A stretch of 64,000 nt of DNA from positions 152,520,001-152,584,000 of the forward strand of contig OX597816.1 of NCBI GenBank assembly GCA_951406725.2, in the 5' to 3' direction. The position numbers and the translations under genes are program-made. Shown in pieces: positions 1,033 to 5,862 of this stretch (position 1 is its first letter; every line of letters begins with the position of its first letter). This DNA is from Octopus vulgaris. Lineage: Eukaryota. The notes beneath the pieces were generated by a model. That model made no database searches. It saw only the letters and a list, made by a program, of their open reading frames with translations, and was not told where the DNA came from.

Positions 1033-1074
1033 TTATAACATGTTTCAGTTCCTGAAATGAACCTTATCAAAAAA
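1033..1074 (-). ncRNA. Hammerhead ribozyme motif with U3-A8 variant core
   Basis: Minus strand reads tttt-TTGATAA-ggttc-atttcag-gaact-GAAAC-AT-GTT-ataa. Stem II ggttc/gaact, palindromic stem III ACATGT, weak stem I. Confidence 0.55.
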
Positions 1075-1414
1075 AGTTATATATAAAAAAAGACAGCTCA
1101 TGCCGTCAAACACAAGAAATTCATTTATAATACACAACGGAGTCAGACATCTTAGAGTTCATGTATAGTTGATATATAGTTTGAAGTAAGTTCATTCATG
1201 CTATATGTTCAAAGTGTTCGATGCAGTGGCCCACGGTGGCGATACGTATTCAATACAAAAAACAGATCAAAGTGGTGGAAAGCAGTCAATACAGAAGATT
1301 GATGTTTCCGAAAGAGCGAGGAATTCATTTTTACCTTAAGCAATTGTGATGACCCATGGTGGGTGTTCGCTGGGTGGTTCTAGTGAGTCTTGTGAATTGC
1401 TCGGTTTTATAATG

Positions 1415-1800
1415 CCTGTTAGGTGGTCAGTCCAGCGTAGCGTGACGTCATCAACGTTTTGACCAATCGTTTCGTTAGGTGGCTTTAGTCAAGCAGAACG
1501 GGACGTCATCATCATTTTGACCAATCGCTGTATTATAACTGCCTCTTGTCTGTTTCCTGTTTTGACCAGTCGCTTCGTTAGGTGGCTTAGTCAAGCAGAA
1601 CGGGACGTCATCCAGATTCTGCCCAATCACGACTTATAGCTACATTAGATCTGCCCCCTGTCTGTACTTGTTAGGTGACTAGTCAAGCAGAAAAGGACGT
1701 CATCAATATTCTGACTAATGACTGTCCCCTGTTTGTATCCTGTCCATTCTAGTAGAACTAGACGTCATCAACGTGTTGACCAATCAGAATCGGGTCTGAC
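1415..1800. repeat. Degenerate tandem repeats (~60-100 bp units) in the Penelope 3' region
   Basis: Recurring gttaggtggcttagtcaagcagaacgggacgtcatc...ttgaccaatc units, about 5 copies of the GACGTCATC...CCAAT part. Confidence 0.8.
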
Positions 1801-1954
1801 CCTTAGCTATATCGTATGTATCAGGGTCAGATTTGCACGAAAGAATTTTTTTCCCTTTTTTACTAAGGCATATTTCCGTCAGTGCGAGTGTCTGTTTAAG
1901 GTAGCGGCCGTGGTGGAATTTTGCTTCTCCTTTTCGGAGGACTTATCTTTTGTT

Positions 1955-2329
1955 TTAGTATTCCTGGCCCAGGGTGTTTAAACTTGGTCTAAATTTTTTT
2001 ATGAAATATAGTTCTTTATGTTGGCGTTGTGTGAAGGTTGCGTTGTCACTGAATTTATAGAGCGGGTTAGTTGTAAATTTCGGATTTACATTTCCAGCAC
2101 ATCTATCAATGTGTCCGCTGACCGGTATTTTGCGGTAATCAGGGTTTCTAATTTGTGATTTATGTACCGCCATCCTGTTACGTAAGCTATTTTTTGTATG
2201 GCCTATATACTGCCTATTGCAGCCTGCGCATGTTATGACGTAAATTAGGTTTTCTGATGCGCAGGTGAAGTTTGTTCTAATGGTGAACTGGTGGCCTTGT
2301 TCCAGTATAAATTCTGATCCTTCGTTCAA
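1955..2329 (-). pseudogene. Penelope GIY-YIG endonuclease C-terminal domain (5'-truncated)
   Basis: [25 protein letters not shown]...LRNRMAVH...[13 protein letters not shown] matches the PLE GIY-YIG pattern with CxxC insertion. No true start; runs into (TA)n. Confidence 0.9.
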
Positions 2330-2489
2330 GATGACACAGATATATATATATATATATATATATATATATATATATATATATATATATATATATATATATA
2401 TATATATATATATATATATATATATATATATATATATATATATATATATATATATACTATATATATATAAGTCAGTTTCAAATTGAAGT

Positions 2490-2532
2490 CCACCTGAAGA
2501 TTGTCGATCAAGACAAGAAACAATTGTAGTGG
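2490..2532 (+). ncRNA. Minimal type-I hammerhead ribozyme (intact canonical core)
   Basis: ccac-CTGAAGA(2494-2500)-ttgtc-gatcaa-gacaa-GAAAC(2517-2521)-AATT-GTA-gtgg. Stem I 4 bp, stem II 5 bp, palindromic stem III, GUA cleavage triplet. Confidence 0.85.
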
Positions 2533-2889
2533 CGGTTTTTTTTTTACTTTTTATTAAAATTTTATGTATTGATTAAGTCTTTCCTTGTTTGTTTTGCAAA
2601 ATAGTGGTTTTGTCTCTAATAATATTATATAATATTTTACTATAAAATTGGATTTAATCCTAAATCTGATTTTTTCCCTGTAAATTTGGATTTATTCCCT
2701 AATATTTATTACTATATATATATATATATATACATATATATATATATATATGTATGTATGTATGTATATATATATATATATATATATATATATATATATA
2801 TATATATATATATTTATGTATGTATGTATGTATGTATATATATATATATATATATATTTATATATATATATATATATATATATATATAT

Positions 2890-4140
2890 AAAAAGGAAAT
2901 TAAGAAAATACTGACAAAATAATTTAAGTAAGGGAGAGTGTATTTAATTAGGTGAAAGTTCTTTTTACCGGTTGCGCATTTGTTATGCTTATCAAAAGAT
3001 ATTTTTTAAAGAGAGATAGAGTTCCTTTCTGATAGATTTTTTTCTCTTATCTGACTTTATGTTGGGTTTGCTGTCTCTTATATGTGAAAAAAGAGGCTCC
3101 CGAGTTGTTTAAGATTTGCTTGGTTTCGCGCCTAAAATTTCTTGTGGACAATGGTCAATACAATTTTGATTGGTCATTATAAAGGGGTCACGTGAATGTT
3201 TGAATGGAAGTTGGTGTTGGGGTAAGAAAATAGGTTCCAGAGATGTTAAAATTTGGCTAGTGTCGCGCCTAAAATTTCTTATTGGTCATAATAAAGAGGT
3301 CACGTGGATGTGGTCATAATAGAGAGGTCACGTGAATGTTTAGAATGAATGCTGGTGTGGGTGGTGTATGGAGTTTTCGAAAATAGCGTTGTTGAAAATT
3401 CTTATTGTTCAGGCTGGTCAGTAGACGTCATGTGGATATTTTAAATAGCTTTTTAGCGCGTAGTTAAGGAGTGTATTTTCCGCTTGACTGAATTTGAGCT
3501 GGATAAGTAAATTCGTTTTGGGCAGGAAGAGCTATATGTTTGTATGTGTGCGCGTGTGTGTGTGTGTGTGTGTTTATATGTATGTTTGGGCGCGCGCGCG
3601 TGTATATATGTGTGCGTGTGTGGGTACAATTTTCAATATTTATAGTTCTGCTGGCCTTGTGCCTGTATCGGGAAGCAACGTGTTTGTGTGAAGTCAATAT
3701 TTACAGTCGTTTCCAAAAAATAGTGTTGGATGTTTTGCACCCGTATCAAATTATGTGTATGTGTGGAACCATATATTTGCGTGTGTCATGGTGTTAATAT
3801 CTGGGTAAAAGTGTGTGTAGGGTGTGTGCAGGTGTAAGTGTGTTTGTTGTGGGTTCGTGTTAGGGGGATGTGTTTAGAAGTGGTCTGTATTTATTAATAA
3901 GGTGGGATTCCATGGTTATTCGCTGGGTATGAGTGGCATTGTCTTTAAATTTGTAGAGGGGAAAGATTCTAAAATTGGGATGAAGTTGTGCGGCACAGGT
4001 ATCAATATGTGCACTAAGTGCTATTTTTCTGTATTGCTGTATTTTTATTTGGGATCTGTGGACCGTCATGCGTTGGCGGAGGCTATTTTTAGTTTGGCCT
4101 ATGTAGTGTTCATTACAGCCCGAGCAAGTTAAGACATATA
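2890..4140 (-). mobile_element. Inverted copy of the 3' end of the adjacent Penelope element (end of GIY-YIG + 3' region)
   Basis: 3842-4140 is the reverse complement of ~5260-5558, and ~2890-3265 of ~5558-5935. ORF 3860-4069(-) repeats MTVHRSQIKIQQYRK... and ends KYRPLLNTSP. Confidence 0.9.
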
Positions 4141-5540
4141 CCCTGCTAGTAACATTCGATGTAGTTAATCTTTACTCCAACATCCCCCACAACCTAGGAA
4201 TAGAAGCTATCCAATTCTGGCTGGATAATTACTCCAACGAACTCCACACCGCATCAAAAAGGAATTTATTTTAGAAGGACTCAAATTCATCTTAGAGAAT
4301 AATTTCTTCACCTTCAACAACAAATTCTACAGACAGAAATCAGGGACGGCAATGGGAACGAAAACAGCTCCCACTTACGCCAACCTAGTCATGGGATACC
4401 TGGAAATCACCCTCTATAATAACGTTCTTAACCAATTTGGCACCACTCTCCACACACACATAGAGAAGAACTGGAAGAGATATCTTGATGACTGCTTCAT
4501 CCTTTGGCCCGAAACCATCGAGAAGCTTAAAGAATTTCACACCCTTATAAATGGGCTCAACACAAACATTATTTTCACAATGGAATACAGCCCTCAACAA
4601 ATTCCCTTCCTCGACATCCTCATTAAAATTCACAACAAAAAAGTAGAAACAGACATATACTACAAGCCCACAGACTCCAAGCAATACCTCCCTTTCAATT
4701 CATGCCACCCTAGACACGTTAAAATTAACATTCCCTACAACTTAGCCAAGAGAATTTGCACTATAGTCTCCAATAAAAACACCCGTCTCTTACGTCTACA
4801 AGAACTTAAGGACACATTAACAAGCAGGGATTACCCCACGTCACTAATTGACAATGGGATCCAACGCGCCCTAAAACTCAGCACACAGGAACTTAGACGC
4901 CCTAAACCTGTTACATCGAAACCCCATACTCTACCATACATCTCTACACACAACCCCCTCAACAATGAAGCTTTTGACACCATCCTCCAGAACATTCCTG
5001 TATTAAAAAGGACCATAGAATGAACCAAATCCTCCTAACACACGAAATCATAAAGAGCAAAAGGCAACCCAAATCATTGAAAACAATCCTAACAAATGCC
5101 AAAGTACTGCCAACCACAACAACTAAACCCACAGTAAACAAATGCAATAGACCCAACTGTGGTATATGCATCAACCTAATAGAAGGTCCGGAATTCCTTT
5201 TTAAACAAGGACAACGTTTCACAGTAAAACACAACTTCACATGCGCATTAGAAAACCTAGTATATGTCTTAACTTGTTCGGGCTGTAATGAACACTACAT
5301 AGGCCAAACTAAAAATAGCCTCCGCCAACGCATGACTGTCCACAGATCCCAAATAAAAATACAGCAATACAGAAAAATAGCACTTAGTGCACATATTGAT
5401 ACCTGTGCCGCACAACTTCATCCCAATTTTAGAATCTTTCCCTCTACAAATTTAAAGACAATGCCACTCATACCCAGCGAATAACCATGGAATCCCACCT
5501 TATTAATAAATACAGACCACTTCTAAACACATCCCCCTAA
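4141..5540 (+). pseudogene. Penelope-like reverse transcriptase + GIY-YIG endonuclease, 5'-truncated, with single-base frameshifts
   Basis: LLVTFDVVNLYSNIPH, GTAMGTKTAPTYANLVM, WKRYLDDCF, PFLDILI, TDIYYKPTD..YL.FNSCHP, then CNRPNCGIC and VYVLTCSGCNEHYIGQT. Breaks near 4245, 5005 and 5440. Confidence 0.93.
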
Positions 5541-5822
5541 CACGAACCCACAACAAACGACACTAGCCAAATTTTAACATCTCTGGAACCTATTTTCTTA
5601 CCCCAACACCAACTTCCATTCAAACATTCACGTGACCCCTTTATAATGACCAATCAAAATTGTATTGACCATTGTCCACAAGAAATTTTAGGCGCGAAAC
5701 CAAGCAAATCTTAAACAACTCTGGAGCCTCTTTTTTCACATATAAGAGACAGCAAACCCAACATAAAGTCAGATAAGAGAAAAAATCTATCAGAAAGGAA
5801 CTCTATCTCTCTTAAAAAAATA

Positions 5823-5862
5823 TCTTTTGATAAGCATAACAAATGCGCAACCGGTAAAAAGA
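5823..5862 (+). ncRNA. Hammerhead-like motif with U3-A8 core and GCAA in place of GAAA (inverted twin at ~2960-3000)
   Basis: tctt-TTGATAA(5827-5833)-gcat-aacaa-atgc-GCAAC-CG-GTA-aaaaga. Palindromic stem III ACCGGT. Located at the 3' end of the PLE. Confidence 0.5.

What the first reader, a model, noticed from the sequence alone, without database searches (positions are those of the whole stretch)
1033..5862. Two related Penelope elements both carry a compensatory U3-A8 hammerhead core (UUGAUAA)
Seen: at the 3' end of both coding PLEs the position of CUGANGA is occupied by TTGATAA (1064-1070 minus; 5827-5833 plus), with different stem II and stem III sequences. Established: C3-G8 is a tertiary Watson-Crick pair in the active hammerhead and compensatory swaps can retain activity. 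Inference: the double change in two diverged families points to selection on a rare core variant rather than decay. The 5823 copy also has GCAA for GAAA and may be dead or be a further variant.
Basis: partly seen in the sequence, partly recalled or inferred. Interest (0 to 1): 0.7.

Follow-up and report, generated by a model that had tools for sequence, protein, structure and literature searches.

The report
Retrotransposon hammerheads swap their core pair
Two jumping-gene families in this animal genome carry a likely self-cutting RNA motif whose core pair is U-A instead of the usual C-G in nearly every copy, a swap already described; related families carry A-U or G-C instead, which likely means the pairing rather than the letters is what is kept, though cutting is untested.

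Summary
TTGATAA sits in minimal hammerhead motifs at 1064-1070 (-) and 5827-5833 (+), and in a missed inverted copy at 2989-2995 (-). It is family-wide, not decay: among copies picked by protein alone, 26 of 30 (family A group) and 38 of 40 (family B) show U3-A8 and none C3-G8. U3-A8 is already published for Penelope-like elements (Cervera and de la Pena 2014) and for natural hammerheads (Perreault 2011). It is not rare here and is probably not two independent swaps: A and B sit in one clade (100/100) where no sampled member has C3-G8. Inside that clade other families carry A3-U8 and G3-C8, so all four Watson-Crick pairs occur in one genome. I did not find natural A3-U8 or G3-C8 in print, but a key paper was unavailable; an earlier scan note reports A3-U8 in a phage. 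GCAA (A13C) is fixed in family B (20 non-C13 copies against about 960), which still has intact 784-codon frames. With its weak stem I, that hammerhead is more likely crippled than a new active variant (about 60:40). Cleavage is untested.

The parts
919..2341 (-). Family A Penelope-like element, 5'-truncated (endonuclease end plus 3' pLTR), between (TA)n runs
   Evidence: 95% identical to full-length copy L318; (TA)n flanks
1958..2320 (-). GIY-YIG endonuclease end of family A
   Evidence: PF01541 E 1.5e-7
1017..1093 (-). Hammerhead A: core UUGAUAA 1070-1064 (U3 = 1070, A8 = 1065), stem II 1063-1047, GAA 1046-1044, palindrome ACAUGU 1043-1038, U17 = 1037; long irregular stem I (outer limits approximate); predicted cut between 1037 and 1036
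   Evidence: cut site inferred from the hammerhead consensus
2848..4141 (-). Inverted copy of the 3' part of family B, joined head-to-head to the forward copy
   Evidence: inverted arms 96-100% complementary; 97% to L308; GIY-YIG E 1.6e-7
2960..3001 (-).
4140..5940 (+). Family B Penelope-like element, forward copy, 5'-truncated and frameshifted (RT part 4229-5023, endonuclease frame 4978-5484, pLTR to about 5940)
   Evidence: RVT_1 E 3.2e-4 (below Pfam cut-off), GIY-YIG E 5.5e-5; 98% to intact copies L303, L308
5821..5862 (+). Hammerhead B: core UUGAUAA 5827-5833 (U3 = 5827, A8 = 5832), stem II 5834-5846, G12-C13-A14 5847-5849, palindrome ACCGGU 5850-5855, A17 = 5856; stem I only 2 contiguous pairs; predicted cut between 5856 and 5857

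Best explanation
These are minimal hammerhead motifs in the 3' repeats of two Penelope-like retrotransposon families that carry a U3-A8 core pair, likely inherited from one ancestor, and that would cut their own RNA weakly, as dimers. Steps. Shown: position behind the RT-GIY-YIG frame, family-wide U3-A8, palindromic stem III, and related families with A3-U8 and G3-C8. Established: 3-8 is a Watson-Crick pair, G12 is the general base and the 2'-OH of residue 8 the proposed general acid (PMC6155905 passage), so the base at 8 can change if the pair is kept. Inferred: two transcripts or tandem repeats pair through ACAUGU (A) or ACCGGU (B) to form stem III and cut after N17, probably helped by the element's own protein as in the anole element PAc. 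Inferred: purifying selection keeps the pair while its identity drifts (C-G to U-A at the base of the clade, later A-U and G-C). For family B, the fixed A13C plus a 2-bp stem I likely leaves little or no cleavage (about 60%); the family multiplied to about a thousand copies anyway.
For: Family state: (982 matches, control 0; first 100 listed: 95 U3-A8/C13, 1 U3-G8, 4 U13, 0 C3-G8, 0 GAAA)., copies picked by protein only: A group 26 of 30 UUGAUAA+GAAA, 1 decayed, 3 unparsed; B 37 of 40 parsed, all UUGAUAA, plus 1 unparsed copy that shows it, 2 without the 3' end. Pair covariation, hand counts of the first 100 rows: (Y3,R8) U-A 86, C-G 6, U-G 5, C-A 3; (R3,Y8; 1,920 vs control 635) A-U 87, G-C 7, A-C 6, G-U 0; (G3,Y8; 213 vs control 83) G-C 72, G-U 28. 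Blind descriptor on the loci held: 38 of 41 distinct motifs Watson-Crick at 3-8. Stem I, not in the search patterns, pairs at 5 or more of 6 positions in 16 of 23 G3-C8 loci and 1 of 7 G3-U8 loci, and at 4 of 4 in 15 of 28 A3-U8 loci; it covaries (AUAUC/GAUAU to GUAUC/GAUAC). N7 varies (U, C, A) while U3 and A8 stay. Trees: non-C3-G8 clade 99.8/100 and 100/100; B+J 96/98; A3-U8 family N3 with G3-C8 family Q 100/100; C3-G8 family M outside. A vs B proteins 65% identical. Intact 784-codon B frames carry the C13 motif. Contigs of 4 public runs from three coded organisms list no other letter at 3, 8 or 13.
Against: No cleavage data. In one deep mutational scan only the G-C swap rescued the 3-8 pair, not U-A (PMC9901934 passage). 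In the anole element hammerhead mutants did not affect insertion in vitro and no RNA-seq reads ended at the cut site (PMC11167929 passage), so the selected function may not be cleavage for insertion. Window motif A has only 1 contiguous stem I pair next to the core, and folding energies did not separate families. The base of the clade is an open fork (A+B+J is 95/94 only), several rows are short or decayed, and only one C3-G8 family with a linked protein (M) serves as outgroup, so the order of swaps is not settled. Pattern rows seen are the first 100 from the start of the assembly, counted by hand; copies of one family are not independent.
Confidence: 0.75

Rival explanations
1. Family B's A13C hammerhead is an active natural core variant, for example rescued by the element's protein or by the U3-A8 context.
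For: C13 is fixed: 20 non-C13 copies genome-wide with this stem (16 U, 2 G, 2 A) against 982 matches. G12, A14, the palindrome and a 4-bp stem II are kept. The 30-nt motif is identical in subfamilies whose 5821-5940 region is only 89% alike. Intact frames exist.
Against: Sister family J and all other families seen have GAAA; all 56 representatives in the 2014 supplement show GAAA or AGAAA. B's stem I has 2 contiguous pairs and its 5' strand changes between subfamilies while the 3' strand stays AAAAGA, unlike the compensated stems of N1, N2 and Q. The free fold traps the core in a hairpin (weak evidence). No second C13 family: the C13 in L107 is copy-specific, and the TTGAAAAG repeat showed no endonuclease link of its own.
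Confidence: 0.35
2. A and B each swapped C3-G8 to U3-A8 independently because U3-A8 is favoured.
For: The proteins are only 65% identical and stems II and III differ. The base of the clade is unresolved.
Against: No C3-G8 member among 28 rows or 18 rows of the clade; F, D, H and J also have U3-A8. Later swaps to A-U and G-C show no preference for U-A as such.
Confidence: 0.07
3. The motifs are dead relics: AT-rich drift turned CTGATGA into TTGATAA and nothing selects on the pair.
For: C to T and G to A are the common decay direction in AT-rich DNA; hammerhead activity was dispensable for insertion in vitro in PAc.
Against: Drift would not give A3-U8 (two transversions away) or G3-C8 (against the AT bias) with mismatches rare, nor compensated stems. 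The very young family J has a clean U3-A8 motif.
Confidence: 0.1

Closest known systems
Minimal hammerheads of metazoan Penelope-like elements, including the U3-A8 family Sm3 of Schistosoma mansoni Cercyon (Cervera and de la Pena 2014, PMC4209133; main text parts 1-2 of 4 and supplement parts 1-2 of 3 read)
   Same: Type I motif in the pLTR behind an RT-GIY-YIG frame; palindromic stem III suited to dimers; U3-A8 core (about 1,300 hits there; UUGAUAA and UUGAAAA in their Fig. S3); inverted copies on the opposite strand.
   Different: Here U3-A8 marks a whole clade and is the commonest core; A3-U8 and G3-C8 families occur (none among their 56 representatives, but their descriptors fixed the core); family B has C13; their conserved extra nucleotide between 9 and 10.1 is not evident; the proteins have a CX4CX2C linker finger (Neptune/Nematis type per 10.1101/2021.04.23.441226 passage), whereas Cercyon is recalled as Penelope/Poseidon (not tested).
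Natural core variants of hammerheads (Perreault et al. 2011, PMC3088659; abstract, section 8, first part of the discussion and passages read)
   Same: C3-G8 to U3-A8 covariation in nature; rare tolerated core changes (A6C, U13a insertion, U15.1-A16.1).
   Different: No A3-U8, G3-C8 or A13C named in the text read; Figures 5, S6 and S7 not seen.
PAc (Poseidon, Anolis) hammerhead (PMC11167929; passages read)
   Same: Minimal PLE hammerhead; engineered C3G/G8C partly rescues; cleavage only with the element's protein.
   Different: PAc has natural C3-G8 and the motif overlaps the start codon; here it lies about 300-1,000 nt behind the endonuclease.

Membership tests
Penelope-like element (EN+, C-terminal GIY-YIG) | Single frame with RT followed by GIY-YIG endonuclease | tested here: met
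   781- and 784-codon open frames in genomic copies of A and B; window copies truncated
Penelope-like element (EN+, C-terminal GIY-YIG) | pLTR with tandem or inverted 5' partial copy | tested here: met
   inverted copy 2848-4141; upstream forward or inverted motif copies in 6 of 10 full-length B loci
Neptune/Nematis-type PLE | Zinc-finger motif in the RT-EN linker | tested here: met
   CX4CX2C in A, B and J; feature from 10.1101/2021.04.23.441226 passage
Neptune/Nematis-type PLE | Placement in a tree with named reference elements | not tested
   no reference proteins were held
Minimal PLE hammerhead | Core N3-U4-G5-A6-N7-N8-A9 with a Watson-Crick 3-8 pair | tested here: met
   U3-A8 in both families
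Minimal PLE hammerhead | G12-A13-A14 | tested here: not met
   met in A (GAAA); not met in B (C13 fixed)
Minimal PLE hammerhead | Stem II closed by a 10.1-11.1 pair | tested here: met
   B G-C, 4 bp; A G-U, 5 bp; G-C in A subfamilies; A-U in one contig of organism B
Minimal PLE hammerhead | A15.1-U16.1 with palindromic stem III and H17 | tested here: met
   ACAUGU-U and ACCGGU-A
Minimal PLE hammerhead | Stem I of 4-5 bp next to the core | tested here: inconclusive
   A: 1 contiguous pair then a long irregular helix; B: 2 pairs; relatives 3-7
Minimal PLE hammerhead | Extra nucleotide between 9 and 10.1 | tested here: not met
   stem II starts right after A9 in A, B and J
Minimal PLE hammerhead | Self-cleavage after N17 | not testable with these tools
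   only contigs were available; no raw reads
Rfam hammerhead families | Covariance-model match | tested here: not met
   no hammerhead match at E<=1

The most novel reading that the evidence does not exclude
One clade of Penelope-like elements has run the classic compensatory-mutation experiment in nature: its hammerheads cleave with U3-A8, A3-U8 and G3-C8 cores, the last two not yet described from retroelements, and family B either cleaves with a C at the 'invariant' A13 or is a natural knock-out showing that a hammerhead-bearing Penelope family can reach about a thousand copies without cleavage.
Probability: 0.4. Interest if true: 0.62.

Novelty: new variant of a known kind. Interest (0 to 1): 0.42.

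Why it matters
U3-A8 itself adds little: it is published. The wider pattern matters in three ways. All four Watson-Crick pairs at 3-8 in related natural elements is comparative evidence that these weak minimal hammerheads must still adopt the active fold, which bears on the open question of what the PLE hammerhead is for. Searches that fix CUGANGA and GAAA miss most hammerheads of this clade, so counts and 'no ribozyme' calls are biased. Family B beside its sister J gives a ready natural pair to test whether cleavage is needed for retrotransposition.

Tried and rejected
Rfam: no hammerhead match. TTGATAA alone is below chance. A second C13 family: L107 looked like one, but its family has GAAA; the TTGAAAAG...GCAA repeat was rejected, since it showed no endonuclease link of its own (in L118 the endonuclease belongs to another motif 430 nt upstream; its resemblance to a Helitron end is recalled). 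An older A13 subfamily of B: not found; of 2 A13 copies one is an ordinary B copy and one does not align to B. Reading GCAA as an inserted C: rejected by inspection, because it loses A15.1-U16.1 and sister J has GAAA-CCGG. Dimer folding energies: gaps of 2-15 kcal/mol across all 14 examples, no discrimination (crashed). Support labels printed were shifted by rerooting; one search gives the right ones. L397 was dropped from the second tree because its endonuclease lies 943 nt from an N1 motif and may belong to another element; one search used 23 rows against 38. Family K: no motif found within about 1.3-2 kb. No RNA holder listed; contigs cannot show cut sites. Metagenome scan for G3-C8: 4 of 80 matches examined (of 119 listed) had a stem I of 4 bp or more, taken as chance. 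Papers not held: Lunse 2017 (about 150,000 PLE hammerhead variants, recalled), Przybilski and Hammann 2007 (59, 69), Martick and Scott 2006 (44), Nelson and Uhlenbeck 2008 (70); any of them, or their supplements, may already list A3-U8, G3-C8 or A13 data. Searches that found no natural A3-U8, G3-C8 or A13C.
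Full report
What is in the window. Bases 919-5940 hold the 3' parts of two Penelope-like elements (PLEs) among (TA)n runs. Family A lies at 919-2341 on the minus strand. Family B lies at 4140-5940 on the plus strand, with an inverted copy of its own 3' part at 2848-4141. GIY-YIG domains pass Pfam's cut-off in all three pieces; the RT piece matches RVT_1 below cut-off. Full-length genomic copies have open frames of 781 (A) and 784 (B) codons, 65% identical, with a CX4CX2C finger before the endonuclease. 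The genome is a 2.8-Gb animal assembly.

The observation. The word alone is below chance (18 against 27.5) and Rfam finds no hammerhead. A structural descriptor blind to positions 3, 8 and 13 hits exactly these three places; resampled controls average 0.13. A reads UUGAUAA, GGUUC/GAACU, GAA, ACAUGU, U; B reads UUGAUAA, GCAU/AUGC, GCA, ACCGGU, A. This is the minimal, palindromic, dimer-type PLE hammerhead of Cervera and de la Pena 2014 (PMC4209133).

Family state. With 3, 8 and 13 left free, B has 982 exact matches (control 0); of the first 100 listed, 95 are U3-A8/C13, 1 U3-G8, 4 U13, none C3-G8 or GAAA. A search for non-C13 copies gives 20 in the genome: 16 U, 2 G, 2 A, one of the two A copies not being family B. 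Copies picked by protein alone agree: A group 26 of 30 UUGAUAA with GAAA (1 decayed, 3 unparsed); B 37 of 40 parsed, all UUGAUAA, 36 of them GCAA, one more unparsed copy showing both, two lacking the 3' end. Contigs of four public runs from three coded organisms list no other letter at these positions, although contigs drop rare variants.

Not rare, and probably not two events. A general pattern with Y3 and R8 gives 4,536 matches (control 103); the first 100 are 86 U-A, 6 C-G, 5 U-G, 3 C-A, with many different stems. A C3-G8 pattern gives 1,084 (control 151); the patterns differ, so the totals are only roughly comparable. U3-A8 also marks families D, E, F, H and J, with N7 as U, C or A. J is B's sister (71% protein identity; 96/98), very young, with a clean motif and GAAA. 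In endonuclease-side trees all protein-linked non-C3-G8 families form one clade (99.8/100 with 38 rows; 100/100 with 23 rows) and the one protein-linked C3-G8 family (M) falls outside. U3-A8 in A and B is therefore best read as shared inheritance. The base of the clade is unresolved.

All four pairs. Reading downstream of other endonucleases showed A3-U8 and G3-C8 cores. With R3 and Y8: 1,920 matches (control 635); first 100: 87 A-U, 7 G-C, 6 A-C, 0 G-U. With G3 and Y8: 213 (control 83); first 100: 72 G-C, 28 G-U, 14 of the latter ending in GUC like the abundant A3-U8 families and probably their decayed copies. Stem I was not in the patterns, yet it pairs at 5 or more of 6 positions in 16 of 23 G3-C8 loci (1 of 7 G3-U8 loci) and fully over 4 positions in 15 of 28 A3-U8 loci, with compensatory changes. 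These motifs lie behind PLE endonucleases. A blind descriptor over the loci held gives 38 of 41 distinct motifs with a Watson-Crick 3-8 pair: 19 U-A, 12 A-U, 6 C-G, 1 G-C (most G3-C8 motifs failed its stem II filter, their stem II being 1-2 pairs). N3 (A-U) and Q (G-C) are one group (100/100). None of the 72 G3-C8 rows has C17, which fits avoidance of a G3-C17 mispair (compare PMC3884650 passage), but these rows are one lineage. All counts of listed rows are by hand, from the first 100 rows, and copies of a family are not independent.

Mechanism. Established: 3-8 is a tertiary Watson-Crick pair; G12 is the general base and the 2'-OH of residue 8 the proposed general acid (PMC6155905 passage); metazoan minimal motifs cleave weakly and as dimers. 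Inferred: two copies pair through the 6-nt palindrome and cut after N17, probably with help from the element's protein, as PAc cleaves only with protein and is partly rescued by C3G/G8C (PMC11167929 passage). Selection keeps the pair and its identity drifts. Against: one deep scan saw rescue only by G-C (PMC9901934 passage); PAc insertion in vitro did not need the ribozyme; window motif A has a poor proximal stem I; folding energies were uninformative.

Family B. C13 is fixed and unique to B among the families seen. Its stem I has two contiguous pairs, and its 5' strand changes among subfamilies without change in the 3' strand. That looks like relaxed constraint. On the other side, G12, A14, stem II and the palindrome are unchanged between subfamilies that are 89% alike around them, which is suggestive only. 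I put 60% on crippled or dead, 35-40% on an active variant. I found no measured A13C rate in the papers held.

Comparison with print. U3-A8 in nature: Perreault 2011 (PMC3088659 section 8). U3-A8 in PLEs: about 1,300 hits in Schistosoma mansoni, with UUGAUAA and UUGAAAA in the supplement; none of its 56 representatives has A3, G3 or C13, though the descriptors fixed the core. Seven searches found no natural A3-U8, G3-C8 or A13C, but Lunse 2017, Przybilski and Hammann 2007 and Nelson and Uhlenbeck 2008 were not held and figures were not seen. An earlier scan note reports U3-A8 and A3-U8 in a phage (e1-3482507; not checked).

Verdict. Observation confirmed; interpretation partly supported. The finding as written is a known variant in a new host. 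The added value is the four-way natural covariation inside one PLE clade and the fixed A13C family beside an intact sister, both easy to test. New variant of a known kind; interest 0.42.

Noticed in passing
window 6484-7342 and 8590-9450: An 861-bp inverted repeat, 99.8% identical. Each arm holds a C3-G8 hammerhead-like motif (core at 6807-6801 minus and 9127-9133 plus) with a stem II extended to about 85 nt and an 8-nt palindrome ACAGCUGU before UC. No PLE protein match between the arms.
   Followed up: partly
L235, L244, L245, L247, L249, L250 versus L184, L239, L246, L248, L252, L254: PLE family M has a C3-G8 motif (stem I UGAAC/GUUCA, palindrome AGUACU); one subfamily is fixed for U4C (CCGAAGA), the other has CUGAAGA. 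A second core change fixed in a PLE lineage.
   Followed up: partly
L312-L317 (e.g. G000:C9:10669700-10679600): Family J: many identical 784-codon copies, often in tandem about 4.4 kb apart, with a clean U3-A8/A7 motif; the best candidate for a cleavage assay.
   Followed up: partly
L122-L128 (G000:C1:20002278-20004542): Tandem 359-bp repeats with a canonical CUGACGA hammerhead, retrozyme-like; L089, L176, L199 and L004 hold motifs with a similar stem II but U3-A8.
   Followed up: no
L118:1078-1110: Family H motif UUGACAA with perfect 5-bp stems and one extra A in GAAAA; may be copy-specific.
   Followed up: no
L231-L243 (family K): A C-terminal-endonuclease PLE family in which no hammerhead was found within about 1.3-2 kb downstream.
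   Followed up: partly
window 1428-1790 and 3171-3341: Short tandem repeats in both 3' UTRs carrying TGACGTCA/GACGTCAT or CACGTG words next to CCAAT words, a possible internal promoter of the pLTR (factor-site reading recalled).
   Followed up: no
window about 12820-13620: Weak match to the N-terminal part of the PLE protein profile (E 2e-9 and 0.005), probably a decayed PLE fragment.
   Followed up: no
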